DNA of 47,493 nucleotides from Bacteroidales bacterium (GTDB lineage: Bacteria > Bacteroidota > Bacteroidia > Bacteroidales > DTU049). This document shows positions 8,303 through 42,453 of the stretch, piece by piece (position 1 is the stretch's first letter; each line of letters opens with the position of its first letter). The position numbers and the translations under genes were made by a program. The stretch is taken from contig JAPXMM010000001.1 in assembly GCA_033809015.1 (NCBI GenBank), positions 1 to 47,493 on the forward strand, read 5' to 3'. Under the pieces are notes generated by a model that saw only the letters and a list, made by a program, of their open reading frames with translations, was not told the DNA's origin and did not search any database.

Positions 8303-9019
8303 ATGAAAAGGATAGCAATTTTAATTATAGGACTTTTGTCAGTATTTTCATTAAAAATTTATGGACAAAATGATGAAGCATTAACAGAATTTAAATTTTT
8401 CAGAGCTGGTATGTATGGGACTACTGGAATTACTTGGATAAAACCTGACATGAAAGAATGGACAAATGAGGGTGTTCGTTTTGGTTATGGTTATGGTTTT
8501 ATGGCAGAGTTTGCTCTAGCACCTAATATTATTATTGCATCAGGCTTTGATGTGATGTATGGAAGTGGTAAATTGAAATTCGCTGATACACTGTTTATCT
8601 TTGATAGCTCTATAGCCAAACAGTCTGATATTAATTCTTTATACAAAATTCAATATTTACAAATTCCTATTACTATCAAAATGCGCACTAATGAAATTAA
8701 TTATTTCAGATATTATATGAGACTCGGTAGCTCATTAGGCTTCAGAATAGGAACTAAATATACTGAAGAAATTAGTGCCAAAGATGGTTCACTTGTTTCT
8801 ACACCTTATGATAATGAAAAAGCTATTGATCGTGTTCCTCTTTTCAGAGCTTCTTTCGATGTAGGTGGTGGTATAGAATATTCACTAGGTGGCACTACTG
8901 CATTATTAGCAGAAATATATTTTAATAATGGCCTCACTAATAGCTTAAAAGAATATAATAATTTTAAATATAATGCTAAAGTCAATTACTTAATGCTAAG
9001 AGTTGGCGTTTTATTTTAA
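8303..9019 (+). CDS. Small outer-membrane beta-barrel protein (OMP_b-brl/PorT-like)
   Basis: Signal peptide ending ...KIYGQ. Alternating hydrophobic beta-strand pattern. Aromatic C-terminus ...LMLRVGVLF. Confidence 0.5.
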   Translation: MKRIAILIIGLLSVFSLKIYGQNDEALTEFKFFRAGMYGTTGITWIKPDMKEWTNEGVRFGYGYGFMAEFALAPNIIIASGFDVMYGSGKLKFADTLFIFDSSIAKQSDINSLYKIQYLQIPITIKMRTNEINYFRYYMRLGSSLGFRIGTKYTEEISAKDGSLVSTPYDNEKAIDRVPLFRASFDVGGGIEYSLGGTTALLAEIYFNNGLTNSLKEYNNFKYNAKVNYLMLRVGVLF

Positions 9020-9230
9020 GATAAAGATAAAAAAATTTTCGCTTCTGCCTGCTTGAATATCGAAAAGCATCGACAGATGACTCAATTATTATTGCCCGAG
9101 AATCCTTCTGGAAAGAAGCTTTATTATCTAGAACTGAATTTGGATATAATAAAAATTAAAAAACTGCTGTTGACAAAAGCTATACGTAATGCGATTTTTG
9201 GTCCTAAACTGAAAGTGAATTAATATTAAC

Positions 9231-9405
9231 AAACATCATTTATAAATATTTGGCTAATTGGCTTTTAAATAAAAAAGTAGATTGGTTAAAAAAAACTTTT
9301 AGATTGAAAAAATTTATTTTTTGGTTAAAATAATTATTTTTATTTTTGACAAAATTTTTGAAAAAAATAACGGGGAAGCTGAAAACCGAATAGAGTAAGC
9401 AGAAA
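9231..9405 (+). repeat. Cassette-upstream module, copy A (promoter plus conserved leader)
   Basis: Paralogous to 10567-10737 and partly to 12614-12700. Contains 'aaacatcatttataaatatttggctaattggctttt...gtagattggttaaaaaaa...ataattatttttatttttgacaaaattt...aataacggggaagctgaaaa..tagagtaagcagaaa'. Confidence 0.85.
9341..9348 (+). promoter_or_regulatory. Bacteroidota-type -7 box (TAnnTTTG) inside module A
   Basis: 'tatttttg' lies 75 nt upstream of the ATG at 9423. The same box sits at the same module position in copy B. Confidence 0.5.
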
Positions 9406-9422
9406 TTTTAAATCTAAGTATT

Positions 9423-10430
9423 ATGAAGCCTAATATTTTTAGTATAGCCACAAAGGAGCTGTCGCAAGACGGTTTTTTTACTTGGCTGTTGCAATGGGGA
9501 GCACCTGAAAATGAGAAAATCGACAGTAAATTGTTTAAATGTGCTCAAAATTTTATTAAACTCCTTTTGTCAACTCACAACATCGAAATTAAAGAAATAA
9601 CTAAAGTTGATGCAGGACGTCAATGGGAAAATATAGACATTTGGGCTAAAATAAATAATGAATATCTGATTATTATTGAAGATAAAACATTTACAGTAGA
9701 ACATTCTAATCAACTTGAAAAGTATAAAAAAACTGCTGCTGATTGTTGCGAAAAAAATAATTACAAATTAATTTGTATATATTTAAAAACTGGAGTACAA
9801 TCAAAGTCGTCACTTGAAAAGATTAGAAACAAAGGATTTCAAATAATTGACAGGAAAGAATTGATTACATTTTTTGAAAAAAATGTAGTTGATAATGATA
9901 TTTATAATGAATTTGTTGAAAATCTTAATTCGCTTGAAAGTTCCATAAATTCATTTGAAACTCTACCAATAAAGAAATGGGATCATTATAGTTGGCTAGG
10001 TTTTTATCAATTTTTAGACACAAAACTTGAAGGAAATGATTGGCAATATGTTCCTAATCCCTCTGGTGGTTTTTTAGGCTTATGGTGGCACTTTTTAAAA
10101 TGGAAAGATTATGATGTTTATTTACAAATAGAGCAAGGTAATTTGTGCTTTAAAATTGGAGGAGTATCTAAAAACCATAGTTCTGTTAGAAATGAATGGT
10201 TTTCGGTTTTATCAAAGCAGATAAAATCTGAAAATCTAGTTGAAATAAAAAAACCTCCTAGATATGGTAAAGGATATTTTATGACTGTAGGTATTGTTCG
10301 TCGAGAGGATTGGCTTGGGCAAGATGATAGTATATTAGACAAAGAACAAGTTATTCGTAATTTGAAAAAATATGAAAACTTCTTATCAAATTGCGTAAAA
10401 CAATCAAACACAGAAAGTAACATCATTTAA
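9423..10430 (+). CDS. PD-(D/E)XK-superfamily nuclease family protein (defence-island type)
   Basis: N-terminal MKPNIFSIATKELSQDGFFTWLL. Candidate catalytic motif ENIDIW-x9-LIIIEDK (D...ExK). No other recognisable domain. Confidence 0.6.
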   Translation: MKPNIFSIATKELSQDGFFTWLLQWGAPENEKIDSKLFKCAQNFIKLLLSTHNIEIKEITKVDAGRQWENIDIWAKINNEYLIIIEDKTFTVEHSNQLEKYKKTAADCCEKNNYKLICIYLKTGVQSKSSLEKIRNKGFQIIDRKELITFFEKNVVDNDIYNEFVENLNSLESSINSFETLPIKKWDHYSWLGFYQFLDTKLEGNDWQYVPNPSGGFLGLWWHFLKWKDYDVYLQIEQGNLCFKIGGVSKNHSSVRNEWFSVLSKQIKSENLVEIKKPPRYGKGYFMTVGIVRREDWLGQDDSILDKEQVIRNLKKYENFLSNCVKQSNTESNII

Positions 10431-10520
10431 AAAAATTCGGTAATTAGTGCGATATCGGGCGATATAGCTTGTATCAAAAGTCGTCGCTACTTGATAGAAT
10501 ATTGCTTCGAAATATGCAAT

Positions 10521-10737
10521 AAAAATCTACAGCTGTCCTTTGTATTGCATTTAAAAACAAAAAATCAAACATTATTTATAAATATTTGGCTAATTGACTT
10601 TCAAATAAAATAGTAGATTGGTTAAAAAAATTTTTAGATTGGGGAAATTTATTTGATTGATAAAATAATTATTTTTATTTTTGACAAAATTTTAAAAAAA
10701 TAACGGGGAAGCTGAAAATAGATTAGAGTAAGCAGAA
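10521..10737 (+). repeat. Cassette-upstream module, copy B (longest copy)
   Basis: 10521-10640 is nearly identical to 12568-12680 (copy C). 10567-10737 is paralogous to 9231-9405 (copy A). Confidence 0.85.
10676..10683 (+). promoter_or_regulatory. Bacteroidota-type -7 box (TAnnTTTG) inside module B
   Basis: 'tatttttg' lies 80 nt upstream of the ATG at 10763. Confidence 0.5.
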
Positions 10738-10762
10738 AATAATTAATATAAAATTAAAAATT

Positions 10763-12466
10763 ATGCAATTTAGACAAGAAAACCTCTTAACATTTTTTGA
10801 TAGCACACAGAGATATTTTATAATCCCTGTTTACCAAAGAGCATATTCTTGGGAAAAAAGAGAATGGCAAACTTTTTTAGATGATTTAAAAGAACAAATT
10901 GAAGGGGATAATAACTATTTTTTTGGAAATATTTTACTCGAACAAATAAAAGAAGGAATAGAATATGAAATAATTGATGGACAACAGAGATTGCTAACTT
11001 TAACAATTTTTATGCGGGCATTGATCAATGTTTTTGAAAAAAGAAAAGAAAGTGGTGAAAAAATTGATGTAAATATTGAAAGTAAAAAATCTATTTATTT
11101 AAAACATAATGGCAACATAAAATTACGTCCCGTTGATTATGATAGAGCCTGTTTTGAAGATCTTATTATTAACAATATTGATTGTGAAACGAATAGCATT
11201 TCACAACAACGAATGAAAGAAGCAAAAATATTTTTTACTGAAGCTTTAAATAAGGAATCAACTGGAACACTTTTGAATATTTTGGATAAAATTGAAAAAA
11301 CAAAATTAACAACTATAGAATTAGTTGGCAAAAAAGATGCAGCTTTAATGTTTGAATTACAAAATAATAGGGGCAAAGATTTAACAAATATTGAAAAATT
11401 AAAATCCTATTTTATGTATCAAATGTATGTTTATAGTCCTGAGGGTGAAACAGAAACAAATATTGAATACGTTTCAAATATATTTAAGAATATTTATCTT
11501 ACTATTAAAGATTTAAAAGAATTAGAAGAAGATAGTATTTTAATTTATCACTGTAATGCTTACATCAATGGATATAACTACAGAACTATATCAGATATTA
11601 AAGATACTTTCAAAAATTCTAGAAAAGATAAGGTGGAATGGATAAAACATTTTGTAAATGAATTACATACAACATTCTCAAATTTTAAACGACTTGAAAA
11701 CTCAAAACTTTCTTACTATCAAGATTTAAAAAGACTTAAAATTCCCTCGTTTGTTTACCCTTTTATCGTGAAAGGATACAAATTTTTCGGTGATTCCCAA
11801 GAAAAATTAAATTCACTTTTTCACATTTTAGAAGTTTTAGTATTTAGATATCAATTAATAAATAGTAGAGCAGACATAGAAAGTCGTTTAAATGAGATAT
11901 TAGTAAATTTCAATGGAGATTTAAAAAAACTAAAAATTGATTTACAAAACAAATTAAACGAAACTTGGTATTGGAATGATGAAAGAATTAGTGAATATTT
12001 AAACGGTGAGATGCATGAAAATAAAGTTTTACATTATTTACTGTGGAAATATGAAGATTATATTCAATCGGAAGGATATAATATTAAAAAAATAAAGCTT
12101 TTAAATGAACAAATTGAGCATATTGCGCCACAAACACCAACAAATGGAGATCCAATTGCTTCAGGTTATGAAATTAATAAAAATGGTGATTATGGCAGCA
12201 AATTTAAGAATGAATATTTGAATTGTTTGGGAAATTTAATGTTAATATCAGGTTCTCATAATAGTTCCATTGGAAATAAGCCTTTTAAAGAAAAACTAAA
12301 ATCGTATATAAAAAATCCACTTTTAAATCAACAAGCAGAAATAAAAGATTTTATAAGTGGGAATTTGAAAAATCCATTGTGGGATAAAACAGCAATAGAT
12401 AAAAGACACGAAAAAATACTTGATTTTGCCGAAAAAAAATGGAGTTTTGATAACGTGATAATATAA
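10763..12466 (+). CDS. DUF262 (ParB-like NTPase) plus DUF1524 (His-Me finger) protein, GmrSD-like type IV restriction enzyme
   Basis: N-terminal IPVYQRAYSWEKREW and IIDGQQRLLTLTIF are DUF262 hallmarks. C-terminal EQIEHIAPQTP...LGNLMLISGSHNSSIGNKPF is the DUF1524/HNH-like motif. Confidence 0.8.
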   Translation: MQFRQENLLTFFDSTQRYFIIPVYQRAYSWEKREWQTFLDDLKEQIEGDNNYFFGNILLEQIKEGIEYEIIDGQQRLLTLTIFMRALINVFEKRKESGEKIDVNIESKKSIYLKHNGNIKLRPVDYDRACFEDLIINNIDCETNSISQQRMKEAKIFFTEALNKESTGTLLNILDKIEKTKLTTIELVGKKDAALMFELQNNRGKDLTNIEKLKSYFMYQMYVYSPEGETETNIEYVSNIFKNIYLTIKDLKELEEDSILIYHCNAYINGYNYRTISDIKDTFKNSRKDKVEWIKHFVNELHTTFSNFKRLENSKLSYYQDLKRLKIPSFVYPFIVKGYKFFGDSQEKLNSLFHILEVLVFRYQLINSRADIESRLNEILVNFNGDLKKLKIDLQNKLNETWYWNDERISEYLNGEMHENKVLHYLLWKYEDYIQSEGYNIKKIKLLNEQIEHIAPQTPTNGDPIASGYEINKNGDYGSKFKNEYLNCLGNLMLISGSHNSSIGNKPFKEKLKSYIKNPLLNQQAEIKDFISGNLKNPLWDKTAIDKRHEKILDFAEKKWSFDNVII

Positions 12467-12567
12467 AAGGTGGCTAACAAGCGGTATAGTTTATTGTCTA
12501 GATCATCCTGAAATCAACGGTAGCAGCTAGTTTCAAATTTCCTGCAGGTTTGCTTGGAATCTTAAAC

Positions 12568-12700
12568 AAAAATCTACTGCTGTCCGTTGTATGGCATTTA
12601 AAAACAAAAAATCAAACATTATTTATAAATATTTGGCTAATTGACTTTCAAATAAAGTAGATTGGTTTAAAAAAAACTTGTAATTAAAAAAATTTATATA
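12568..12700 (+). repeat. Cassette-upstream module, copy C (5' part only)
   Basis: 'aaaaatctactgctgtccgttgtatggcatttaaaaacaaaaaatcaaacattatttataaatatttggctaattgactttcaaataaagtagattggttt' matches copy B. It lacks the 'aacggggaagctg' leader segment. Confidence 0.8.
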
Positions 12701-12727
12701 TCTTCGTAAAGTAGAATTCTAAATATT

Positions 12728-13069
12728 ATGAGAAATTATCTATGTAAAAAATGTGCCACTCTCGTTAAAAGTGACAAAAAACCAATTATTTTTAATTGTC
12801 CTAGTGGAGGAAATCATCAATGGACTGATTTGGGTGAAGTTGGGACTACTAATTATCAATGTCAAAAATGTGCTACACACGTTAAAAGTCTCAAAAAACC
12901 AATTAGTTTTGATTGTCCTAGTGGGGGAAATCATCAGTGGACTGATTTAGGCGAAGTTGGGGATAATAATTATCAATGTCAAAAATGTGGGCTACTTCTA
13001 AAATCACAAAAAAAGCCAATTAGTTTTAATTGTCCTAGTGGAGGAAATCATCAATGGACACAGCTCTAA
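12728..13069 (+). CDS. Small protein made of three tandem 39-aa zinc-ribbon-like repeats (CxxC-x13-CPSGGNH)
   Basis: The repeat NY(L/Q)C(K/Q)KC..(V/L)KS.KKPI.F(N/D)CPSGGNHQWT(D/Q)LGEVG occurs at aa 3-41, 42-80 and 81-113. Nucleotide repeats are 12734-12850, 12851-12967 and 12968-13066. Confidence 0.6.
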   Translation: MRNYLCKKCATLVKSDKKPIIFNCPSGGNHQWTDLGEVGTTNYQCQKCATHVKSLKKPISFDCPSGGNHQWTDLGEVGDNNYQCQKCGLLLKSQKKPISFNCPSGGNHQWTQL

Positions 13070-13073
13070 TTAT

Positions 13074-13153
13074 ATGAAGTCAAACATTTTTTGTATAACC
13101 ACAAAAGAGCTGTCTCAAGATGGTAAAGAATAGACATCTCTGCTAAAATAATT
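13074..13153 (+). pseudogene. Decayed 5' fragment of a second PD-(D/E)XK nuclease gene (paralog of 9423-10430)
   Basis: atgaagtcaaacattttttgtataaccacaaaagagctgtctcaagatggt encodes MKSNIFCITTKELSQDG, versus MKPNIFSIATKELSQDG at 9423. A stop follows at 13131. Then 'aatagacatctctgctaaaataa' resembles 9631-9654 'atatagacatttgggctaaaataa', which implies internal deletion and truncation. Confidence 0.7.
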
Positions 13154-13198
13154 TACCCACAATAAACGTTATAGAAACAAAAATAAATTTAATAATAT

Positions 13199-14143
13199 AT
13201 GAATAATAAAAATGAAGGCTTGATAGAAACTAATTTTAGCTTTCCTAGCCAAATAAATTCACATAAAGGGAAAGTACGTGATATTTATGAATTTGATAAT
13301 CTAATATTAATGATCGTAACAGATAGAATATCTGCATTTGACGTTATATTACCACAACCAATCCCATACAAAGGACAAGTATTAAATCAAATTGCTGATT
13401 ATTTCCTTGATAGTACTAAAGATATTTTACCTAATTGGAAAATAATATGTCCTCATCCTATGTGTATGCTTGGTCATAAAGCCATTCCTTTTAAAGTAGA
13501 AATGGTCATCAGAGGATATCTAAGTGGTCATGCTTGGAGAGAATATAAAGATGGCAAACGCACTCTCTGCGGTCAACCATTACCAGATGGGTTAAAAGAA
13601 AATGATCCTTTCCCCCACCCTATCATTACTCCTACTACAAAAGCTATAGAAGGACATGATGAAGATATCGCACCAGAAGAAATTATCAGTGCTGGCTTGG
13701 TGTCTAAAGAAGATTATTCGAAACTCGAAAATTATACTTTGCAATTATTCGAAAGAGGTACACAATTAGCTAAACAAAAAGGCCTTATTCTAGTAGATAC
13801 AAAATACGAATTTGGAAAATTAAATGAGGAAATTATTCTCATTGATGAAATACACACTCCTGACTCTTCCAGATATTTCTATGCTGAGGGTTATGAAGAA
13901 AGACAAAAACTAGGACAACCACAAAAACAATTATCTAAAGAATTTGTTCGTGAATGGCTTATGGATCAAGGATTCTCTGGGCAAGATAATCAAAAAGTTC
14001 CTATTATGCCACCAGAGATTATTCACGAAGTTTCTCATAGATATATAGAACTATACGAAATGCTGACAGGTAAAGTCTTTCAACCTATTAATTATAATCA
14101 TCTGGAAGAAGAAATGCAAAAAAATATCTTGAAATATTTATAA
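13199..14143 (+). CDS. purC: Phosphoribosylaminoimidazole-succinocarboxamide (SAICAR) synthase
   Basis: GKVRDIYEF...[23 protein letters not shown] and [11 protein letters not shown]. Length matches the long PurC type. Confidence 0.9.
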
Positions 14144-14147
14144 AATT

Positions 14148-14372
14148 AAAATAGGCTTTTAGCAAATAATTTTTCTAAATATTTTTTATTAATAGATTGA
14201 CATCAAAATTAATTCTTTGCTCGAATTAATACCGCATTTTTCAATCTAATAATTATGTTTCTTTTTATAGTTGAAAAATAAAGATTTTAACAAGAAATAT
14301 TAAACTCTTATAAAATCTGGCTTTGCTTATATATTTACAATAATAATTTAATTATTAATTAAACACCTATTT
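14148..14372. repeat. MITE-like intergenic repeat, copy 2
   Basis: Termini are 'aaaataggcttttagcaaataattttt' and 'aataatttaattattaattaaacacctatt', imperfectly inverted to each other. Internal hairpin 'tttctttttatagttgaaaaataaag'. Homologous to copies at 133-260, 22330-22492, 24017-24291 and 37274-37808. Confidence 0.65.
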
Positions 14373-17282: not shown

Positions 17283-17603
17283 AATTATAGTGAATTATTT
17301 AAAGACACATTGAATAAAAATTTTGGTTCTATAACGTTTACTATGAGTAAAGATTAAAAATGATTTATTTTATAAAAGATTTGATAATATTTGTTAATAA
17401 AAACCACTAAGTTCTCAAAATAATCACAAAGGACACAGTGAAGGATAGAATTAACGCAATAACAATATCAAATAACACTTTGTGAACTTTGTGTAATAAC
17501 TTTATGCTCTTTGTGTTAAAAAAAATATCTAAATATTAAAGATATTTATTTTTATGTAATAATCTTAAATTTTATTACCTATTCGAGACGTTAAAAAACC
17601 AAA

Positions 17604-18656
17604 TTATAAACTCATTTTTTGCTTATTAAGTTCTATAAATTCATAATCTGGTTTAGAAACAAAAATATCTTGTTTAATTGTAGATAATTTATTTAAGGTA
17701 GCTTTTATGGCAATTTCAGAAATATCTATTCCAATCCAGGTTCTATTATTTAATTGTGCAGATTTTAATGTTGTACCGGATCCACAAAAGCAATCTAAAA
17801 CAATACTATTTTCATTAGAAGAAGTTTTAATAATTAAATCTAATAAATCTTGATTTTTTTCTGTTGGATAAGTAGGATATTGAGGATCTTTGAATTCCCA
17901 AATATCTTGCATTCTTTTGCCAATATTTTCATCAGCATAAATAATTTTTCTTGGATTTCCAGTAGAAGACCATTCTATTAAACCTTGATTATCCCATTGT
18001 TCTAAAGTATCAACATCTACTCTCCAGTGACGCCCCTTTGGAGGTAATAATCCCTTAAAAGGCATATTAGTTTTTCCATTAACGGTTTCACCTGGTGCGT
18101 GAATAGGCACAGTAGTATAACGGCGACCTTGTTTATTAATTTTAGGGAATAATTTTTCAATATCTTTTTGTGAATATTTCACAATCGGTTCATTCCATAT
18201 AGGGTTTGCTGTTTTAGTATAAAATAAAATCATATCTTTGATATTTCCATAACCTATTTTATTAAAATTTTTAGGATTACATTTAATACGTGTAATATCA
18301 TTTCTAAAATTTTCGATGCCAAAAATTTCGTCCATCATAACCTTAACATAATGCCCAATTTTGTAATCTATATGCAAATAAATAGAACCTTTGTCTGACA
18401 ATAATTCATATAATAAAATTATCCTATCTTTTAAAAATTTAATGTAATCATCCCCTTTTATATTGTCTGTATATGCTACAGTCCCCTTTTTAGAATTACT
18501 TATAGTAGATGCACGATCATCTGTTATTGTGAAATTATTACCAGTAGCAAAAGGTGGATCTATGTATATTAGATCTATTTTCCCTTTTAATTGTCTATCA
18601 TTTATAAGGTATTCTAATGCAACAAGATTTTCACCATGTATTAATAAACTTTTCAT
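17604..18656 (-). CDS. Beta-class DNA methyltransferase (N6-adenine or N4-cytosine) of a type II R-M pair
   Basis: Motif IV IYIDPPFATG is near the N-terminus and motif I VLDCFCGSGTT near the C-terminus, which is the beta-class order. Confidence 0.85.
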   Translation of the reverse strand: MKSLLIHGENLVALEYLINDRQLKGKIDLIYIDPPFATGNNFTITDDRASTISNSKKGTVAYTDNIKGDDYIKFLKDRIILLYELLSDKGSIYLHIDYKIGHYVKVMMDEIFGIENFRNDITRIKCNPKNFNKIGYGNIKDMILFYTKTANPIWNEPIVKYSQKDIEKLFPKINKQGRRYTTVPIHAPGETVNGKTNMPFKGLLPPKGRHWRVDVDTLEQWDNQGLIEWSSTGNPRKIIYADENIGKRMQDIWEFKDPQYPTYPTEKNQDLLDLIIKTSSNENSIVLDCFCGSGTTLKSAQLNNRTWIGIDISEIAIKATLNKLSTIKQDIFVSKPDYEFIELNKQKMSL

Positions 18657-18659
18657 TTT

Positions 18660-19442
18660 CTATATTTGATATAAGAATTCTCTTAAAACTAATGTACTCA
18701 TTATATTATGATTTTTATATTTACCTGTTATCTCTTTATACATTTTATTATTTCCTGGAATATATAAAACCCCATCTAATATGGCAACTTTTATAGTTTT
18801 TACATTTTTTAGTTTGAATATATTTAAGGCCTCATTAAATTGTGCATTTTGATGACCTCCAAAATCTGTTAAAAATTTAGTTTCACCGATAATATATTTA
18901 TTATTAAAACGTCCAATAAAATCCAGCCCTTTATCATGATTATAATTTAATTCGTCTTTTGCAAATTGTAATAAAATTTGATCGCTTCCCTTTAAAATGG
19001 CATCATTTTTAGTAGAAATAAAATTTTCTAAATTTAAAGGTTCGATACCTAATGATTTTTGGTTGATCCAGTTTTTAAACATTGGACCTATTTGCCTATT
19101 AGTTTCTTTAGGTTCACTACATCTTTCATATAAATTATCAAGACCTATTTCATATATTCGTCCACATATACGATTTACTGTTTTAGGATTTCTTTCTATT
19201 GCAGATGGGTCTCTTTTGAGATATGCGATATAACTATCTTTTATGGGAAATAGTGGCAGTTTTAATGTTTCTTTTATTAAAAGTTTATTATCCTTTTTAT
19301 TAAAAGCACTTTCTATATTATCCCAGAGTCGCTGATCAATTTCTCTTATTCCCTCTGGTATAGTAGGATAAACCTTAAATAAATCATCAAGATATGATCT
19401 TTGATTAGCATATTCTATACTTAATTCCAACCAATGATTCAT
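18660..19442 (-). CDS. Putative type II restriction endonuclease (PD-(D/E)XK), cognate to the adjacent methyltransferase
   Basis: Stops 3 nt before the methyltransferase start on the same strand. Candidate catalytic motif GLDFIGRFNNKYIIGETKF (D-x12-ExK). No named family recognised. Start taken at MNHWLEL (19442); the ORF-track start at 19475 is also possible. Confidence 0.55.
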   Translation of the reverse strand: MNHWLELSIEYANQRSYLDDLFKVYPTIPEGIREIDQRLWDNIESAFNKKDNKLLIKETLKLPLFPIKDSYIAYLKRDPSAIERNPKTVNRICGRIYEIGLDNLYERCSEPKETNRQIGPMFKNWINQKSLGIEPLNLENFISTKNDAILKGSDQILLQFAKDELNYNHDKGLDFIGRFNNKYIIGETKFLTDFGGHQNAQFNEALNIFKLKNVKTIKVAILDGVLYIPGNNKMYKEITGKYKNHNIMSTLVLREFLYQI

Positions 19443-19734
19443 TATTTTTTTACAAATATATAAAAAATTTACCATTTAGATAAGTAGCAAAATTTAATGT
19501 CTAATTTGCAGATTCTCGAATGATTAGACAGATTTATAAAGTCTATAATGATTATCTTGTTTTTATACTTTATCAAAAATTTTTTTTGATAAATTGTTGG
19601 TGCAATTCATGAATTGTCTCAATGAATTACTCCATATAAAAAACAATAGTAGAAGCCATATTACCTTACGCCTAATCATCATAATATTTATAGATCAGAC
19701 AAAAAAGTTATCAAACTTATTAAACATCATTTAC

Positions 19735-19789: not shown

Positions 19790-22300
19790 GTGCAAAAAAG
19801 AGTTTATCTGCTTTCTATCTTGATATTTATTGATTTTTTTGCTTTGATAGGGCAAAACTCCGATACTTTATTGCAGAGTAATCAAATGCAGGACACTATA
19901 ATTACACAAAATGGAGATACTACTAAACTACACATTGCTAAAAGTAGTCAAGCTATTGATAAAAAAGTAGATTATCAATCTAAAGATAGCTTGGTCATGG
20001 AGATGAAAAATAAAAAAATAACTCTGTACGAAAATGCTAAGGTTGTTTATGGTGACCTGACTCTCACTGCAGGTATTATAAAAATAGATTTTGATAAAAA
20101 TCTGGTTTATGCTTATGGTATTTTCAAAGATTCTATTTATTCTCAAAGACCTAATTTCGTTCAAGGTACTCAAATTTTTTTAGCTGATTCGTTAGTTTAT
20201 AATATTAATACAGAAAAAGGATTAGTTTATAATGTATATTCTAAACAAGGTGATGGCTACCTACATGGCAAATATATAAAGCGAGAAAATGATAGCGTCA
20301 TATTAGTAAAAACTGGTGGTTTCACTACCTGCGAATTAACGCACCCACATTATATCATCCGATTTGATAAAGCAAAAGTAATCACCGACAAAGAAATTAT
20401 AACTGGTCCAGTATGGTTAGAAATCGAAGATATTACTCTACCTATTGGGTTGCCAATGGGTTTTTTCCCTACTCAAACAAAACGTAAATCAGGTATATTA
20501 ATTCCTACTTTTGGTGAAAGTGCTAATAGAGGTTTCTTTTTAGAAAACGGTGGTTATTATTTCGGCATTTCTGATTATGTAGATTTAGCTTTACGTGGTG
20601 ATATCTATTCTAGAGGTAGCTGGGCTCTCAAAACAGAAACTAATTATAAGAAGAGATATAAATATGAGGGTAATTTTCAAGCTAGTTTTGCTCATAATAA
20701 ATTTGGTGAAAAGGGCTTTAGTAATTATGAAGTTTATAATGATTTTTTTGTCCGCTGGACTCATAAACAGGACCCCAAAGCTCATCCTACCAATAGATTT
20801 AATGCAAATGTACAATTAGGTTCTTCCAATTATAATAAATTTAATCCATCATCTGCTAATGATTATTTATCCAATACTTTCTCTTCGTCTATTTCATATT
20901 CTACCATACTATTTAGGACTTTTAACCTCAGTCTCAATGCTAGACATACACAGAGCAATACTACTCATCGTGTAGATGTTTCATTACCAGATATTAATCT
21001 ATCTTCTAATACTATTTATCCTCTACGACCAAAAAAGTTGACTAAACCTCTGAAATGGTATCAAAATTTGAATTTCAGATATCAGCTGCAAGCTAAAAAT
21101 AATCTCTCTCGACCAGATAGTATTTTTTTCAAAAATCTTAGTTTGAATGATTTTAATATGGGTATTCAACATAATTTACCTATTTCATTAAATATTAATC
21201 TTTTAAAATATTTACAATGGTCTAATCAGTTTAATACAAATTGGCGTTGGTATTTTAAGACTATTGATAAAACATGGAATCCTATTGATAGCACTGTTGC
21301 CATCGATACTGTATTCAAATTTAGAACTCCATTAGATATATCATATTCTACTTCTTTATCCACCAGGTTATATGCATTGTATTCATTTGGTAAATTTCCT
21401 TTACGAGTTATCAGACATGTCATCACTCCATCTATTAGTTACACTTGGAGACCAGATTTTAGCAAAGATCCATGGAATTATTACGATAATTATCTTTATC
21501 CTAATGGAGAGCAATGGTATAGCCCATTTGAAGGAACTATTTTTGGCTATCCATCTAGAGGCAAATCATCTGCTATCAGCTTAATGATTTCTAATAATTT
21601 AGAAGCTAAAGTGAGACAAAGAACAGATACTGGCGAGATGTTAAAAAAAATCGTTTTGATAGAAAATTTATCTATTAGTTCCAGTTATAATTTTGCAGCT
21701 GATAGTTTCCAGTTATCACCAGTTATAATTTCTGCTCGTACAAAATTGTTTAAAAATTTTGAACTTCGTTACGCTTTAGGATTAGATCCATACTATTATG
21801 ACTCGGCTGGCAAACGTATTGATGAATTTCAATATAATGTAAATAAAAAATTATTTAATACCCAAAATCAAGAATGGAATTTCAGTGGTAATTTTATTTT
21901 AAAATATCCAAATGTCAAAAAAAATCAATCTCAGCAAGCAAGCAGCTCTACTAAAAAGACATATCCTAATTTTAATGTTACCTTCGGTATAAATCTGAGA
22001 CATTACAGTACATATATTCCTGAGACAAATATAGATTTTACTAAATCAGTTATTGCTAACGGTAATGTAGAGTTTACACCTAATTGGAGTATTTCATTTA
22101 TGACTGGTTATGACTTTGATTTGAAAGATTTTACTTACACTTCTATTAATATTCACCGCGATTTGCATTGCTGGGAAATAATATTAAACTGGATTCCTAC
22201 AGGTTTTCGCAAATCATATAATTTCACCATTCGCATTAAATCTCCTATGCTACAAGATGTCAAATTAACTAAGAAAACTGATTGGAGAGATTACTATTAA
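19790..22300 (+). CDS. lptD: Large outer-membrane protein, putative LPS-assembly protein LptD (Bacteroidota type)
   Basis: Signal peptide. N-terminal OstA-like segment (ITLYENAKVVYGDLTLTAGIIKIDFDKNLVYAYG). Long beta-rich C-terminal region. GTG start. Confidence 0.55.
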   Translation: MQKRVYLLSILIFIDFFALIGQNSDTLLQSNQMQDTIITQNGDTTKLHIAKSSQAIDKKVDYQSKDSLVMEMKNKKITLYENAKVVYGDLTLTAGIIKIDFDKNLVYAYGIFKDSIYSQRPNFVQGTQIFLADSLVYNINTEKGLVYNVYSKQGDGYLHGKYIKRENDSVILVKTGGFTTCELTHPHYIIRFDKAKVITDKEIITGPVWLEIEDITLPIGLPMGFFPTQTKRKSGILIPTFGESANRGFFLENGGYYFGISDYVDLALRGDIYSRGSWALKTETNYKKRYKYEGNFQASFAHNKFGEKGFSNYEVYNDFFVRWTHKQDPKAHPTNRFNANVQLGSSNYNKFNPSSANDYLSNTFSSSISYSTILFRTFNLSLNARHTQSNTTHRVDVSLPDINLSSNTIYPLRPKKLTKPLKWYQNLNFRYQLQAKNNLSRPDSIFFKNLSLNDFNMGIQHNLPISLNINLLKYLQWSNQFNTNWRWYFKTIDKTWNPIDSTVAIDTVFKFRTPLDISYSTSLSTRLYALYSFGKFPLRVIRHVITPSISYTWRPDFSKDPWNYYDNYLYPNGEQWYSPFEGTIFGYPSRGKSSAISLMISNNLEAKVRQRTDTGEMLKKIVLIENLSISSSYNFAADSFQLSPVIISARTKLFKNFELRYALGLDPYYYDSAGKRIDEFQYNVNKKLFNTQNQEWNFSGNFILKYPNVKKNQSQQASSSTKKTYPNFNVTFGINLRHYSTYIPETNIDFTKSVIANGNVEFTPNWSISFMTGYDFDLKDFTYTSINIHRDLHCWEIILNWIPTGFRKSYNFTIRIKSPMLQDVKLTKKTDWRDYY

Positions 22301-22329
22301 TTCTGATATTTTTTTAAAAATAAGTAATT

Positions 22330-22492
22330 AAAATAGGCATTTAGATAATGAAATTTTTTAAATTTTTTTGTATTTTTAAGAATAACCTTAAAATTACAAT
22401 TTTTTTTAAAATAATTACTCTCTTAAGAAATATAACGATTGCTGTGATTGTATCAGTAATAATTTAGTTATTAAATAAATGTACTATTAAAT
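22330..22492. repeat. MITE-like intergenic repeat, copy 3 (short)
   Basis: 5' end is 'aaaataggcatttagataatgaaatttttt' and 3' end is 'agtaataatttagttattaaataaatgtactatt'. Confidence 0.55.
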
Positions 22493-31903: not shown

Positions 31904-33049
31904 AATAAAGTGGGGGGGGAATGATGGAGAATAAAATTTTTAATGTTTTTAAAATTCAAGTTTTTAGATGATAAAAAATTAATATTTTTGCAAAAAATAA
32001 ATAATTATGAATAAATTATTCGAAAATCCGACAGAAGTATTCGCCTTGTCAAAGGAAGGCACACGTGAGTTATATGACAATCTGTACAATGAAATGATCA
32101 ATGAAGGTAAAGATGTAGTCGACTACCAAGAGCTCAAAGCCATGTCTACTGGTGTATTATGCCCAGATTGTAATAGTAGTCATGTTATTAAAAATGGTTT
32201 GCAAAGTGGAGTACAAAACTATCGTTGCAAAAACTGTGGCAGACAATTCAGAGTTACCACAGGCACCTTTATGTATGGCATTCATGAAAAGGGCAAAATG
32301 TTAGAATATATCAAATGTATGAGTGCTGGCATGAGCTTGAGAGAGTGTGCCAGGAATGTACATATTAGTCTTTCAACAAGTTTCTTTTGGCGGCACAGAA
32401 TATTGTGTGCTATGCAGTCGTTTGAAGATAATGTAAATTTCTTTGGGGTAGTAGAATTAGAAGAGCTACTAATGAATTATTCAGAGAAAGGCAAAAAGAA
32501 ACGAGACAAGAAAGAGCTAAAAAAATTGAAGAAAAAGAAACCAACAAAAGTTGCAGTATTGGCTGCCACAGATAGGAGTGGAAATATTTTGTTTAAAAAA
32601 TTAGAAGATGAAAGAGTGCAGGCCGATCATATATCTGCTTTTCTAAAATCACGAATATCTGAGGATTCGGTGGTGTGTGGCAGCAATAAAAAAGCTTTCA
32701 AGACTGTAACTGCAGAACACATCAAACACAAGGAAATAACTAACAAAAATAATATGAAACGAGGTATATACAGTGTATCAACTGTTCATAAAAAAATAAC
32801 CGATTTTGTAGGCTGGATATATTACAAGTTTCGTGGAGTGGCTACTAAGTATCTAACAAATTACATTATGTGGTTTGTAGTGAAGGGGAAGTATCTGGCT
32901 GAGAAGATTATAGAAGATACGGGGAGGATACTGAATTTGGCAGCGTCGGATAGGCGGGCGTGGGAGCGGTATAGTGATTTAATGTCATCAACATATTTAA
33001 TCTATAACATTTAAATATTTTCATAATCTCTTTCACCTTCACTTTATTT
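31903..33049 (+). mobile_element. Insertion sequence (about 1.15 kb) with a Zn-ribbon plus IS1595-like DDE transposase
   Basis: Imperfect terminal inverted repeats: left 31903-31921 'aaataaagtggggggggaa' versus the reverse complement of 33031-33049 'aaataaagtgaaggtgaaa' (15/19 match, first 10 perfect). Contains a single ORF. Sits in the convergent folC / LptFG-permease intergenic region. Confidence 0.6.
32007..33014 (+). CDS. Transposase (N-terminal Zn-ribbon, IS1595/ISXO2-like catalytic region)
   Basis: CPDCNSSHVIKNG-x8-YRCKNCGRQF zinc ribbon. VAVLAATDRSGNILF, DSVVCGSNKKAF and the ...FRGVATKYLTNYIMWF tail resemble the ISXO2-like DDE domain order. A paralog N-terminus occurs at 47427. Confidence 0.6.
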   Translation: MNKLFENPTEVFALSKEGTRELYDNLYNEMINEGKDVVDYQELKAMSTGVLCPDCNSSHVIKNGLQSGVQNYRCKNCGRQFRVTTGTFMYGIHEKGKMLEYIKCMSAGMSLRECARNVHISLSTSFFWRHRILCAMQSFEDNVNFFGVVELEELLMNYSEKGKKKRDKKELKKLKKKKPTKVAVLAATDRSGNILFKKLEDERVQADHISAFLKSRISEDSVVCGSNKKAFKTVTAEHIKHKEITNKNNMKRGIYSVSTVHKKITDFVGWIYYKFRGVATKYLTNYIMWFVVKGKYLAEKIIEDTGRILNLAASDRRAWERYSDLMSSTYLIYNI

Positions 33050-37255: not shown

Positions 37256-37273
37256 GAATATAATAAATTATTT

Positions 37274-37467
37274 GAAATAGGCGTTTAGATAATAAATTTT
37301 GCTAAAAAATTTTTTTTGTAATAATGTAAAACGCTGATATTGATTTTTATCTCTTCCTGTCCGCATTGGGAAATGATTTGCACCAAAACGATGTACCGTC
37401 AACATCCTTGTTGATAAAATATGATTTTTTTTCATAGTTAGAAAAGATAGATTTTATAAAAAAGAAT
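37274..37467. repeat. MITE-like intergenic repeat, copy 5a (left part only)
   Basis: 37274-37382 is a near-identical direct repeat of 37469-37577: 'aaataggcgtttagataataaattt(t/g)gctaaaaaattttttt(t)gtaataatgtaaaacgctgatat(t/c)gatttttatctcttcctgtccgcattgggaaatgatttgc'. Confidence 0.8.
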
Positions 37468-37468
37468 T

Positions 37469-42433: not shown

Positions 42434-42453
42434 CATAAAATATACTATTGAGT

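What the first reader, a model, noticed from the sequence alone, without database searches (positions are those of the whole stretch)
9231..13176. Tandem array of defence-type genes, each preceded by a paralogous promoter/leader module
Three unrelated ORFs with defence-island domains follow each other on one strand:
- a PD-(D/E)XK nuclease (9423-10430)
- a DUF262/DUF1524 GmrSD-like enzyme (10763-12466)
- a 3x zinc-ribbon protein (12728-13069)

Each is preceded by a copy of the same non-coding module: A 9231-9405, B 10521-10737, C 12568-12700.
- All three share 'aaacat(c/t)atttataaatatttggctaattg(g/a)cttt...gtagattggtt'.
- A and B also share 'ataattatttttatttttgacaaaatttt' (with a TAnnTTTG -7 box) plus a conserved leader of about 70 nt: 'aataacggggaagctgaaaa-N5-tagagtaagcagaaa'.
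- B and C also share an upstream 'aaaaatctac(a/t)gctgtcc(t/g)ttgtat(t/g)gcatttaaaaacaaaaaatcaaac'.

The array ends in a decayed 5' fragment of a second PD-(D/E)XK gene (13074-13153). This overlapping A/B/C pattern is what repeated homologous recombination through a shared upstream module would leave behind. That suggests a cassette-exchange hotspot for immunity genes.

I see no integrase, invertase or attC-like folded sites in the window. I cannot assign this architecture to a described system.
Basis: partly seen in the sequence, partly recalled or inferred. Interest (0 to 1): 0.8.

Follow-up and report, generated by a model that had tools for sequence, protein, structure and literature searches.

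The report
Defence-gene hotspot built from repeated regulatory modules
Between two housekeeping genes of an uncultured Bacteroidales bacterium lies a strain-variable slot for anti-phage genes, each behind a copy of one promoter-plus-RNA-leader module whose copies also recombine and so appear to help swap the genes.

Summary
The three ORFs are PDDEXK_4, GmrSD and a 3x zinc-ribbon protein. Modules A, B and C are real repeats found only at this locus in the window.

The interpretation, a cassette-exchange hotspot working through the shared module, is supported. Public metagenomes and MAGs of 77-98% identical relatives show about 11 arrangements between the same OMP and purC flanks. Cargo includes UzuA (GIY-YIG), two type II restriction-modification-type pairs (MTase+REase; MTase plus an unannotated 262-aa gene), a type III-like REase, a second GmrSD and an unknown 241/390-aa gene. 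Module copies are chimeric: L042 has an A-type core, a B-type leader and no PDDEXK, and 32 of 66 site pairs fail the four-gamete test. Island segments are often more similar between lineages than the flanks.

New findings:
- The "conserved leader" is Rfam RF02914, the DUF805b RNA (39.4 bits against a 35.6 cut-off). Copy B is degenerate.
- At least 120 phage contigs carry it as a covarying hairpin plus a loop-tail pseudoknot, 17-22 nt before start codons.
- It also precedes PDDEXK_4 operons and a Zn-ribbon homologue in other lineages.

I found no integrase among the ORFs scanned (three large ORFs were not scanned), no attC-like fold and no genome-wide spread. The closest precedent is the PeSL regulatory cassette of T4-type phages. 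The invariant 23-nt core and the exact start-codon fusions remain unexplained.

The parts
8303..9019 (+). Left flank: OMP_b-brl_2 outer-membrane protein, a conserved core gene
   Evidence: Precomputed Pfam annotation on contigs carrying the identical protein. It is 81-95% identical in the variant contigs.
9034..9159 (+). 3' remnant of a UzuA-type GIY-YIG gene. It is intact (285 aa) in L055, L053 and L048 and cut off by the contig start in L042.
   Evidence: The frame translation NFRFCLLEYRKASTDDSIIIARESFWKEALLSRTEFGYNKN* matches the C-terminus of the 285-aa protein. That protein hits PADLOC UzuA at 4.4e-51 and Pfam GIY-YIG at 7e-4.
9230..9422 (+). Module A. Core 9230-9290, with a 10-bp palindrome at 9238-9247 and TA(A/G)ATTG boxes at 9255, 9278 and 9300. 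Promoter-like -33 TTTG at 9320-9323 and -7 TATTTTTG at 9341-9348. Leader runs up to the ATG.
   Evidence: The promoter is inferred from the Bacteroidetes consensus and is not shown.
9369..9401 (+). DUF805b RNA (Rfam RF02914), copy A. Hairpin CGG/CCG, loop GGAAGCUGAAAA, tail AGAGUAAGCA. It ends 21 nt before the ATG.
   Evidence: 39.4 bits against a gathering score of 35.6. It conforms to the hairpin and pseudoknot pairs counted.
9423..10430 (+). Cargo 1: PD-(D/E)XK nuclease (PDDEXK_4; PADLOC candidate PDC-S26)
   Evidence: Homologues lie next to type I restriction-modification genes, HNH genes and IS elements.
10431..10520 (+). PDDEXK-specific 3' flank
   Evidence: It travels with PDDEXK in L171, and a relic of it is present in L047.
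10521..10762 (+). Module B. UP block 10521-10565, core 10566-10626, -33/-7 promoter-like site 10652-10683, then the leader.
10702..10734 (+). Degenerate DUF805b copy B. Loop and tail are kept, but the 3' stem strand CCG has become UAG. It ends 28 nt before the ATG.
   Evidence: 15.4 bits, below the cut-off. The GmrSD leader has an intact stem and scores 39.4 bits in L045 and L055.
10763..12466 (+). Cargo 2: GmrSD-type (DUF262 + DUF1524) type IV restriction enzyme
   Evidence: It is 94-98% identical in L042, L045 and L055, with different neighbours in each.
12467..12567 (+). GmrSD-specific 3' flank, with an imperfect hairpin that is not conserved
12568..12727 (+). Module C. UP block 12568-12612, core 12613-12676, then the Zn-ribbon gene's own diverged proximal region 12677-12727. 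No -7 box and no DUF805b.
   Evidence: 12677 is a recurrent homology boundary.
12728..13069 (+). Constant gene: 3x39-aa zinc-ribbon repeat protein. It has 2 repeats (74 aa) in L169-L171 and in most homologues.
   Evidence: A distant homologue has a DUF805b-like leader 21 nt upstream (33.1 bits).
13074..13153 (+). Decayed 5' fragment of a second PDDEXK_4 gene, starting 4 nt after the Zn-ribbon stop codon
   Evidence: (D8)
13135..13176 (+). 'END' piece: the 3' end of the 'cacaaag' intergenic element. A full copy lies at the island's left edge in other strains and at window 17320-17540 (minus strand).
13199..14143 (+). Right flank: purC (SAICAR synthetase), a conserved core gene

Best explanation
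Window 9030-13198 is a strain-variable defence-gene hotspot. It lies between an outer-membrane-protein gene and purC in the chromosome of an uncultured Rikenellaceae/Bacteroidales bacterium from anaerobic digesters.

**The module as an expression unit.** Most cargo genes sit behind a copy of one regulatory module of about 190-240 bp. The module has four parts:
1. An invariant 23-nt core.
2. Three TA(A/G)ATTG boxes about 23 nt apart.
3. A Bacteroidetes-type -33/-7 promoter.
4. A 5' leader carrying the DUF805b RNA, a small hairpin plus a 3-bp loop-tail pseudoknot that ends about 20 nt before the start codon.

This gives each single-gene cassette its own transcription. Most likely it also supplies a translation-initiation element for a phylum that does not use Shine-Dalgarno pairing.

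**The module as a recombination substrate.** The tandem copies are 85-100% identical. Crossovers and gene conversion between copies, within a genome or with incoming DNA from relatives, delete, duplicate and replace cassettes. Occasional illegitimate joins create new module-cargo fusions.

**Likely origin.** The module probably came from the promoter and leader of an ancestral operon made of a small repeat protein plus PDDEXK_4.

**Shown:** the repeats, the cargo families, the population polymorphism, the chimeric modules, and the identity, structure, covariation and spacing of DUF805b.

**Inferred:** promoter activity, the translational role, anti-phage function, and RecA-type recombination as the agent.
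For: **Polymorphism.** About 11 arrangements share the same flanks. Several recur in independent assemblies: L012/L038, L169/L170, L040/L054, and more than 20 contigs of the window type.

**Cargo annotation.**
- UzuA, 4.4e-51
- Type II MTase 9e-32 plus REase 6e-37
- Type III REase-like, 4e-20
- GmrSD and a second GmrSD_C
- PDDEXK_4

**Recombination inside modules.**
- L042a matches module A at every informative site through the promoter and module B at every one from the leader on. The switch lies between alignment columns 112 and 161, which include the 29-nt tract identical in A and B, and PDDEXK is absent.
- 32 of 66 informative site pairs are incompatible, giving Rm = 4 in about 200 nt.
- Module variants are shuffled relative to cargo.
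- GmrSD (94-98% identical) has different neighbours on both sides in four arrangements.
- L171 differs from the window by replacement of GmrSD with the 241-aa gene, with both breakpoints inside modules.
- Island segments are more similar than flanks in some pairs: L047 module A is 99% identical against 83% for OMP, and L055 GmrSD is 98% against 91%.

**DUF805b.**
- Scores at or above the gathering cut-off occur in front of PDDEXK_4, GmrSD and the 241-aa gene across strains.
- Across 93 unique instances, 94% of cells pair against 74% when shuffled. All four hairpin pairs show compensatory changes. The pseudoknot pair occurs as CG 62, UA 20, UG 11 and never unpaired.
- The motif-to-start distance is 17-22 nt in 74 of 97 cases.
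- It is intercistronic in phages, including cultured Flavobacterium phages, where it lies 19 nt before a ParB-like gene.
- It precedes PDDEXK_4 operons and a Zn-ribbon homologue in unrelated lineages.

**Not a generic repeat:**
Against: - No transcription or translation data exist. The -33/-7 pattern is not enriched in the window (4 matches against 2.6 expected), and module A has a 17-nt spacer.
- The leader is not obligatory. Copy B in the window is degenerate (15.4 bits). The Zn-ribbon gene, the L169 MTase operon and the 241-aa gene in L042 use other leaders.
- Homologous recombination does not by itself explain three things: five unrelated left flanks or deletion endpoints converging within about 13 nt of CAAACAT; the A-type leader being identical up to the ATG of four unrelated ORFs; and the invariance of the core across species that lack the promoter.
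- All comparative data are short-read metagenome contigs or MAGs, which can be chimeric at repeats.
- OMP may simply evolve faster than the island genes, which would weaken the 'island more similar than flanks' argument.
- Defence function is inferred from family membership only. Zn-ribbon homologues lie in unrelated contexts.
Confidence: 0.68

Rival explanations
1. This is an ordinary defence island. Cargo turns over by recombination in the flanking core genes or by unrelated mobile elements landing in the slot. The repeated modules are passive by-products of duplicating one strong promoter region and play no part in the exchange.
For: - Core-gene-flanked defence hotspots are well documented (PMC10250203).
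- An IS1595-family transposase sits next to purC in L012 and L042 and elsewhere in the window.
- Promoter reuse in front of unrelated genes is known (PMC3575422).
- Several junctions are illegitimate rather than homologous.
Against: - The same GmrSD cassette is combined with different left and right neighbours, and the junctions fall inside modules rather than in OMP or purC.
- There are clear A/B chimeric modules, and Rm = 4 within 200 nt.
- No mobile-element genes lie inside the island in any variant.
Confidence: 0.17
2. A site-specific process acts on the module. The invariant core would be the recognition or cleavage site of a trans-acting recombinase or homing-type nuclease (for example the GIY-YIG protein encoded just upstream of the first module in some strains). 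This would make the array an integron-like or homing-driven capture platform.
For: - The conserved block has a sharp left edge behind at least 4 unrelated flanks, plus a deletion endpoint at the same place.
- The core is invariant and retained in other species where the promoter and leader are missing. There it also abuts a junction where contigs that are 100% identical upstream diverge completely.
- A GIY-YIG gene lies immediately upstream of the first module in L042, L048, L053 and L055.
Against: - No integrase, invertase or serine/tyrosine recombinase is found among the window ORFs scanned.
- No conserved attC-like hairpin exists. Fold z-scores range from -0.05 to -2.3, and changes between strains break pairs rather than compensate.
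- Right-hand breakpoints are scattered: the core/mid boundary, after the -7 box, within the promoter tract, and at the ATG.
- The core is absent from viral contigs.
Confidence: 0.1
3. The apparent variation is an artefact. Metagenome assemblers mis-join contigs at the ~200-bp repeat and so create false arrangements.
For: Many contigs end inside modules (L012, L017, L018, L041, L053, L054). All the comparative sequences are short-read assemblies.
Against: - Variant-specific cargo is joined to unique flanks through non-repeated junctions, for example the 241-aa gene's 3' flank running directly into the Zn-ribbon upstream region, or OMP running to UzuA.
- Arrangements recur in independent assemblies.
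- Variant contigs differ from the window by 2-20% throughout, so they represent different strains.
- The identical tracts between copies (29 nt or less for A against B) are shorter than the final k-mers usually used.
Confidence: 0.04

Closest known systems
PeSL (promoter-early stem-loop) mobile regulatory cassettes of T4-type phages (Arbiol et al. 2010, PMC2839356; Comeau et al. 2014, PMC4122927)
   Same: Short regulatory cassettes are repeated between non-essential, variable ORFs in a hyperplastic region. Recombination between copies causes insertions, deletions and replacements that distinguish close relatives. Each ORF keeps its own promoter.
   Different: This is a bacterial chromosome rather than a phage genome. 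The module has no conserved terminator stem-loop. It is longer and carries a structured RNA leader (DUF805b). Mini-circles were not tested. The cargo is host defence genes.
Core-gene-flanked defence hotspots, e.g. cDHS1/cDHS2 of Pseudomonas aeruginosa (Johnson et al. 2023, PMC10250203)
   Same: A fixed slot between conserved core genes, occupied by varied arrangements of defence systems across isolates.
   Different: This one is very small (about 4 kb, mostly single-gene systems). Each cargo carries the same repeated regulatory module, and the exchange junctions lie inside these modules. I do not know of an equivalent internal repeat described for cDHS loci.
Integron cassette arrays / CALINs carrying defence genes (bioRxiv 10.1101/2024.07.02.601686)
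   Same: A one-strand array of compact, mostly single-gene defence cassettes separated by a recurring non-coding element, with cassette shuffling between strains.
   Different: There is no IntI integrase and no attC-type folded site. The recurring element lies upstream of each gene and supplies a promoter and leader, whereas integron cassettes are mostly promoterless with attC at the 3' end. Breakpoints are not at one fixed site.
Rfam RF02914 DUF805b RNA motif (clan CL00115; from the Weinberg et al. 2017 motif survey, PMC5737381)
   Same: Copy A matches the family model end to end above the curated threshold and lies upstream of a coding gene.
   Different: Here it precedes defence-type nuclease genes rather than DUF805 genes. 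Copy B has lost the stem. The pseudoknot pair, the fixed spacing of about 20 nt to start codons and the abundance in Bacteroidota phages were derived here. I could not check whether the original authors reported them, because the supplement is not held.
Putative mobile promoters / promoter reuse (Nijveen et al. 2012, PMC3575422)
   Same: Near-identical promoter regions, sometimes carrying RNA motifs, sit in front of non-homologous genes.
   Different: Here the copies are tandem within one locus and are tied to population-level cargo exchange.

Membership tests
Rfam RF02914 DUF805b RNA | Covariance-model score at or above the curated gathering score (35.6 bits) | tested here: met
   Copy A (9369-9401) scores 39.4 bits. 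Copy B (10702-10734) scores only 15.4 bits and so is not a member by score.
Rfam RF02914 DUF805b RNA | Short hairpin closing a conserved 12-nt loop GGAAGCYGAAAA, followed by the conserved tail AGAGUARGCA | tested here: met
   Copy A has a CGG/CCG stem and the exact loop and tail. Stem covariation was verified on 93 instances. Copy B keeps the loop and tail but not the stem.
Rfam RF02914 DUF805b RNA | Located in a 5' UTR or intergenic region upstream of a coding gene (cis-regulatory type) | tested here: met
   It ends 21 nt (A) and 28 nt (B) before the start codons. The phage-wide mode is 19 nt.
Integron / CALIN | IntI tyrosine recombinase adjacent to the array (integron). Absent in a CALIN. 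| tested here: not met
   No recombinase domain appears in the Pfam results for 29 window ORFs. Three large ORFs (19790-22300, 38718-41726, 42448-44406) were not scanned.
Integron / CALIN | attC sites: imperfect inverted repeats with R''/R' boxes that fold as single-stranded hairpins at the 3' end of each cassette | tested here: not met
   ssDNA folds of both flanks on both strands give z-scores from -0.05 to -2.3. The hairpins differ between flanks B and C. Changes between strains break pairs rather than compensate.
Integron / CALIN | Mostly promoterless cassettes expressed from a common Pc promoter | tested here: not met
   Modules A and B each carry their own promoter-like -33/-7 site. Promoter activity itself was not tested.
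Defence island / core-gene-flanked defence hotspot | The same conserved flanking genes with variable content between related genomes | tested here: met
   About 11 arrangements between OMP and purC
Defence island / core-gene-flanked defence hotspot | Content enriched in known defence families | tested here: met
   PADLOC and Pfam hits to GmrSD/HEC-06, PDC-S26, UzuA, type II MTase and REase, and a type III REase
Defence island / core-gene-flanked defence hotspot | Protection against phage | not testable with these tools
   This needs cloning and phage challenge.
PeSL-type mobile regulatory cassette | Composite of a strong promoter and a stem-loop terminator | tested here: not met
   A promoter-like site is present. 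No conserved stem-loop or terminator is found in or before the module.
PeSL-type mobile regulatory cassette | Recombination between copies generates the indels and replacements that distinguish close relatives | tested here: met
   Chimeric modules, Rm = 4, and breakpoints inside modules
PeSL-type mobile regulatory cassette | Excised mini-circles formed by exchange between nearby copies | not testable with these tools
   This needs outward-facing PCR or long reads.
GmrSD type IV restriction enzyme | N-terminal DUF262 (DGQQR) plus C-terminal DUF1524 (His-Me/HNH-like) domains in one protein | tested here: met
   PF03235 at 2.5e-32 and PF07510 at 9.5e-20. DGQQR is at residues 72-76.
PD-(D/E)XK nuclease, PDDEXK_4 | Pfam PF14281 above threshold with a D...(D/E)XK motif | tested here: met
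   39.5 bits against a 22.3 cut-off. D72 and E86-D87-K88 are in the sequence.

The most novel reading that the evidence does not exclude
The module is a dedicated gene-capture platform, a functional analogue of attC plus Pc without an integron integrase. In this reading, a trans-acting protein recognises the invariant 23-nt core and focuses breaks or strand exchange at the module's left edge. The DUF805b pseudoknot, a leader otherwise abundant in Bacteroidota phages, makes any ORF fused about 20 nt downstream translatable in a Shine-Dalgarno-less host. It could even couple defence-gene translation to the state of the ribosome during phage infection.
Probability: 0.12. Interest if true: 0.85.

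Novelty: new variant of a known kind. Interest (0 to 1): 0.6.

Why it matters
**For defence-island biology.** Defence hotspots are usually described only by their flanking genes. How compact single-gene systems are exchanged and immediately expressed is mostly unknown outside integrons. This locus offers a concrete, testable answer for Bacteroidales: a repeated promoter-plus-leader module that serves both as an expression unit and as a recombination substrate. It is a bacterial counterpart of the phage PeSL cassettes.

**For an orphan RNA motif.** The work gives DUF805b a structural model (hairpin plus pseudoknot), a positional rule (about 20 nt before start codons, intercistronic in phages) and a gene set (ParB-like, SSB-like, GmrSD, PDDEXK operons). 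This makes a role in translation initiation in Shine-Dalgarno-independent Bacteroidota directly testable.

**For gene discovery.** The slot nominates an unannotated 241/390-aa gene, and possibly a pair made of a small repeat protein plus PDDEXK_4, as candidate defence genes.

Tried and rejected
- **attC-like sites.** ssDNA folding of both post-gene flanks and both cores gave no conserved hairpin. An AAC...GTT-ended imperfect hairpin in the GmrSD flank looked promising, but comparison across strains shows pair-breaking rather than compensating changes.
- **Core or UP block as a known RNA.** Rfam at E <= 10 finds nothing there. The core folds worse than shuffled sequence.
- **Core as the end of a coding gene.** The frame ...IIYKYLAN* ends in the core in B and C. 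However, the B/C differences in that frame are 1 synonymous to 2 non-synonymous, and A has no stop codon. I treat this as at most a trace of origin.
- **Terminal inverted repeats or target duplications around the module.** None were seen by inspection.
- **Core on phages.** 0 hits in viral contigs.
- **Generic sigma-70 promoter and terminator scan.** Not above the shuffled expectation. The Bacteroidetes -33/-7 pattern is not enriched in the window either.
- **GC-rich ~300 nt upstream of the core in the L013-type species.** No Rfam family matches, and the fold z-score is -0.06.
- **Literature.** 'DUF805b' appears in one unrelated benchmarking paper. The supplement of the 2017 motif paper is not held. 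Searches for the motif sequence returned only unrelated primers.
- **Zn-ribbon protein as a defence gene.** There are no PADLOC hits, and distant homologues lie in unrelated contexts.
- **Loop-tail pseudoknot in the host copies alone.** L045a has GCU changed to ACU without a compensating change. The host-locus copies are therefore too few and too decayed to test the structure, and the test rests on the phage set.

Full report
**1. Observation**

- 9423-10430 is a PDDEXK_4 nuclease: PF14281 at 7.6e-10, PADLOC candidate PDC-S26, with D72 and E86-D87-K88 visible in the sequence.
- 10763-12466 is a two-domain GmrSD enzyme: PF03235 at 2.5e-32, PF07510 at 9.5e-20, PADLOC HEC-06/Orf5 at 4.5e-48.
- 12728-13069 consists of three 117-nt tandem repeats, each encoding a CxxC...CPxGGxH unit. 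It has only sub-threshold zinc-ribbon hits and no defence-family hit.

The non-coding repeats are real and local. The 22-mer TTTATAAATATTTGGCTAATTG occurs exactly three times in the window, against 0.02 expected. The leader 20-mer occurs twice, against 0 expected. The B/C upstream block is 92-93% identical. The 13074-13153 fragment translates to MKSNIFCITTKELSQDG, against MKPNIFSIATKELSQDG in the intact gene. It is the C-terminus of a GIY-YIG/UzuA gene that is intact in other strains.

**2. Anatomy of the module**

I aligned 20 copies from the window and related contigs. The conserved block starts sharply at CAAACAT (9230, 10566, 12613) and contains:
- an invariant ATTTATAAATATTTGGCTAATTG;
- three TA(A/G)ATTG boxes 22-23 nt apart (9255, 9278 and 9300 in copy A);
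- a Bacteroidetes-type promoter. Copy A has -33 TTTG at 9320-9323 and -7 TATTTTTG at 9341-9348. Copy B matches TTTG-N20-TAnnTTTG at 10652-10683;
- a leader that runs to the start codon.

The promoter assignment rests on the published Bacteroidetes consensus, which I recall from memory. The pattern is not statistically enriched in the window, so the promoter is inferred and not shown. Module C shares the UP block and the core, then continues into the Zn-ribbon gene's own diverged proximal region, with no -7 box and no leader motif.

**3. The leader is a known RNA family**

Rfam places 9369-9401 in RF02914 (DUF805b, cis-regulatory) at 39.4 bits, against a gathering score of 35.6. Copy B (10702-10734) keeps the loop and tail but has lost the 3' stem strand and scores 15.4 bits. 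In other strains the GmrSD leader has an intact stem and scores 39.4 bits. Bona fide copies precede three unrelated cargo genes across strains: PDDEXK_4, GmrSD and a 241-aa gene.

To learn what the motif does, I collected instances from viral contigs.
- The strict pattern hit 14 contigs.
- In 93 unique instances the bases flanking the 12-nt loop covary extensively. Pairs 5-22, 6-21 and 7-20 are 97-98% paired, with 39, 19 and 45 double changes.
- Loop position Y and tail position R occur as C:G 62, U:A 20 and U:G 11, never C:A (Fisher p = 8e-13). This supports a 3-bp loop-tail pseudoknot, GCY with RGC.
- Overall 94% of cells pair, against 74% in shuffles and at most 44% when the partner is slid. 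The sequences are related, so the p-value is only indicative.
- The motif ends 17-22 nt before the next start codon in 74 of 97 cases, with a mode of 19 nt.
- In phages it often begins right after the stop codon of the preceding gene, so it is intercistronic.
- The downstream phage genes are mostly ParB-like (24 of 97; PHROG 12305). Others have SSB-like acidic tails.
- Cultured Flavobacterium phages (lillamy9, morran9) carry it 19 nt before a ParB-domain gene.

The motif also appears in host genomes of other lineages:
- 21 nt before a 'small 3x-repeat protein + PDDEXK_4' operon (L181, 38.8 bits);
- before an 'SH3 + PDDEXK_4' pair (L182, 34.1 bits);
- 21 nt before a marine homologue of the Zn-ribbon gene (L176, 33.1 bits).

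The fixed spacing, the intercistronic use and the phylum's lack of Shine-Dalgarno pairing (established knowledge) make a translation-initiation role the most economical reading. That is inference. A protein- or ligand-binding switch is not excluded.

**4. The locus is highly polymorphic**

The organism is an uncultured Bacteroidales bacterium. The closest named record is the MAG 'Rikenellaceae bacterium DTU001', about 95% identical. More than 20 metagenome contigs carry the window arrangement.

Scanning for the 20-nt core gave 5 genome loci, 0 viral and 19 metagenome loci. Look-ups through the Zn-ribbon protein gave more. Together they show about 11 arrangements. Those whose contigs reach a flank share the same OMP and/or purC genes; the flanks of arrangement 11 are unknown.

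| # | Loci | Arrangement (| marks a module or its remains) |
|---|---|---|
| 1 | window | PDDEXK \| GmrSD \| ZnR |
| 2 | L171 | PDDEXK \| 241-aa gene \| ZnR(2x) |
| 3 | L012/DTU001, L038 | 241-aa gene \| ZnR |
| 4 | L047 | 390-aa form (+DUF6530), then a relic of the PDDEXK flank \| ZnR |
| 5 | L042 | UzuA \| GmrSD \| 241-aa gene \| ZnR |
| 6 | L055 | UzuA \| GmrSD \| remnant of the 241-aa gene \| ZnR |
| 7 | L048 (and L053) | UzuA \| core only \| ZnR |
| 8 | L045 | ZnR-like fragment + type II MTase/REase \| GmrSD \| ... |
| 9 | L169, L170 | MTase + 262-aa gene \| 239-aa gene \| ZnR(2x) |
| 10 | L044 | a second GmrSD_C gene \| ZnR |
| 11 | L040, L054 | type III-like REase \| PDDEXK fragment \| ... 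(flanks unknown) |

The Zn-ribbon gene, the PDDEXK 5' remnant and purC are constant.

**5. Evidence that the modules recombine**

- **A/B chimera.** L042's first module matches window module A at every informative site through the promoter and module B at every one from the leader on. The switch lies between alignment columns 112 and 161, a stretch that includes the 29-nt tract identical in A and B. PDDEXK is missing, which is the product expected from an A x B crossover.
- **Four-gamete test.** Among 11 full-length copies, 32 of 66 informative site pairs are incompatible, and the Hudson-Kaplan minimum is 4 events in about 200 nt.
- **Shuffling relative to cargo.** The 'ctagattgatt' core variant, for example, precedes GmrSD in L055 and the 241-aa gene in L042.
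- **Same cassette, different neighbours.** The GmrSD cassette (94-98% identical) has different neighbours on both sides in four arrangements.
- **Breakpoints in modules.** L171 differs from the window by replacement of GmrSD with the 241-aa gene, and both breakpoints are in modules.
- **Island more similar than flanks in some pairs.** L047 module A is 99% identical against 83% for OMP. L055 GmrSD is 98% against 91-92% for OMP and gldB.

Not every junction is homologous. L055 derives from an L042-like array by a deletion running from the core's left edge into the 241-aa gene. L169's MTase operon joins straight after the -7 box. The A-type leader is identical right up to the ATG of four unrelated ORFs.

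**6. Alternatives tested**

- **Genome-wide repeat:** rejected.
- **Integron or CALIN:** Pfam results covering 29 window ORFs show no recombinase. The only mobility gene is an IS1595-family transposase at 32007-33014. No conserved attC-like fold exists. The one suggestive hairpin, in the GmrSD flank, shows pair-breaking rather than compensating changes between strains.
- **Assembly artefact:** unlikely. Variant cargo is linked to unique flanks through non-repeat junctions. Arrangements recur in independent assemblies. Variant contigs differ from the window by 2-20% throughout.
- **A site-specific component:** cannot be excluded. Five unrelated left flanks or deletion endpoints converge within about 13 nt of CAAACAT. 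The core is invariant. In a second species (L013, L039, L051) it lacks the promoter and leader yet sits 74 nt before a point where contigs that are 100% identical upstream diverge completely.

**7. Most likely mechanism**

Each cassette consists of a module (upstream boxes, promoter, DUF805b leader), a cargo gene and the cargo's 3' flank. The module makes a newly arrived single gene expressible at once.

The tandem copies are 85-100% identical and provide homology for two things: unequal crossover and gene conversion within a genome, and double-crossover replacement by DNA from relatives that carry the same module. Rare illegitimate events create new fusions, and selection keeps those that preserve the spacing between leader and ATG.

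Three observations suggest the module began as the promoter and leader of a 'small repeat protein + PDDEXK_4' operon:
- the Zn-ribbon stop codon lies 4 nt before the PDDEXK remnant;
- L045 has an A-type leader running into a Zn-ribbon fragment;
- L181 has the same leader-operon architecture.

Confidence that the locus is a module-structured, recombining defence hotspot is about 0.7. Confidence that DUF805b acts in translation initiation is about 0.5.

**8. Comparison with what is known**

- The slot is a member of the well-known class of defence hotspots flanked by core genes (PMC10250203).
- It works like the PeSL regulatory cassettes of T4-type phages (PMC2839356, PMC4122927). It is not a member of that class, because it has no terminator stem-loop and lies in a bacterial chromosome.
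- It resembles integron arrays carrying defence cassettes (bioRxiv 10.1101/2024.07.02.601686) in outcome only. It fails every defining feature I tested.
- It is an instance of promoter reuse (PMC3575422).
- Its leader is a member of Rfam RF02914.

I rate it a new variant of a known kind.

**9. Caveats**

- All comparative data are short-read assemblies.
- Promoter activity, the leader's function and the defence function are inferred.
- The phage motif set was collected with a pattern that fixed most loop and tail positions, so only the stem and the Y/R pair were free to vary.
- The genome-collection scan used an exact 20-mer, so diverged copies would have been missed.
- Three large window ORFs were not domain-scanned.

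Noticed in passing
window 17320-17540 (minus strand) and 13135-13176; also L041, L045, L053, L055, L169, L014: A separate intergenic repeat, the 'cacaaag' element, has internal inverted CACAAAG/CTTTGTG motifs and ends in ...ACCCAC..AAACGTTATAGAAC. It lies upstream of metG in the window and after OMP at the island's left edge in other strains. Its 3' ~40 nt also lie just before purC. The island is therefore bracketed by a full copy and a 3' fragment of the same element.
   Followed up: partly
window 17604-19475 (minus strand): A second defence locus: an N6_N4 DNA methylase (2.3e-42) plus a Tsp45I-type restriction enzyme (3.6e-123), adjacent to metG and to the 'cacaaag' element.
   Followed up: partly
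window 32007-33014; L012 1530-2383; L042 5771-6781: An IS1595-family (ISXO2-like) transposase. A ~68%-identical homologue sits right next to purC in the DTU001 and L042 strains but not in the window, so IS elements move around the hotspot.
   Followed up: partly
window 12728-13069; L169-L171: Copy-number variation of the 117-nt coding repeat in the Zn-ribbon gene. The window has three units (113 aa). Close relatives and most of 56 homologues have two (74 aa).
   Followed up: partly
L012 4238-4915 (minus); L038 186-911; L042 3058-3783; L047 1077-2249; L169 5419-6138: A 239-241-aa cargo gene (MEKHIDKSFDKQLEAIT...) has no Pfam, PADLOC or PHROG hit. A 390-aa form carries DUF6530. It occupies the same slot as known defence genes and is a candidate new defence gene. 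It occurs behind two different leaders.
   Followed up: partly
L181 88-1436; window 13066-13076; L045 719-845: A recurrent pairing of a small tandem-repeat protein with a PDDEXK_4 gene immediately downstream (overlapping, or 4 nt apart), behind a DUF805b leader. This may be a two-gene unit.
   Followed up: partly
L013 4971-5092; L039 2459-2600; L051 2654-2800: In another Bacteroidales species the 20-nt core is kept without the promoter or leader. L013 and L039 are 100% identical over 2.5 kb upstream, then diverge completely 74 nt after the core starts; L051 (97% identical upstream) diverges at about the same point. A GC-rich ~300-nt non-coding stretch upstream has no Rfam match.
   Followed up: partly
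Viral loci L024-L168, e.g. L068, L070, L072, L087, L101 (contigs of about 68-105 kb): DUF805b-like motifs are very common in phage contigs. One subgroup on contigs of about 68-105 kb has no ORF 20 nt downstream and is instead followed by a small hairpin (ctaaca...tgttag).
   Followed up: no
window 14139-14190, 22321-22372, 37265-37316, 37460-37511: Another intergenic repeat family (AAATAGGCGTTTAGATAATAAATTT..GCTAAAAAATTTTTTT) lies at gene ends. At 37265-37583 it forms a ~195-nt tandem duplication.
   Followed up: no
L042 947-1007: The GmrSD leader in this strain carries a 21-nt tandem duplication of 'aaaatagattagagtaagcag', which doubles the DUF805b tail.
   Followed up: no
window 39006-39305 and 39846-40145: A 300-nt internal direct repeat (74% identity) inside the 1002-aa ORF at 38718-41726.
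   Followed up: no
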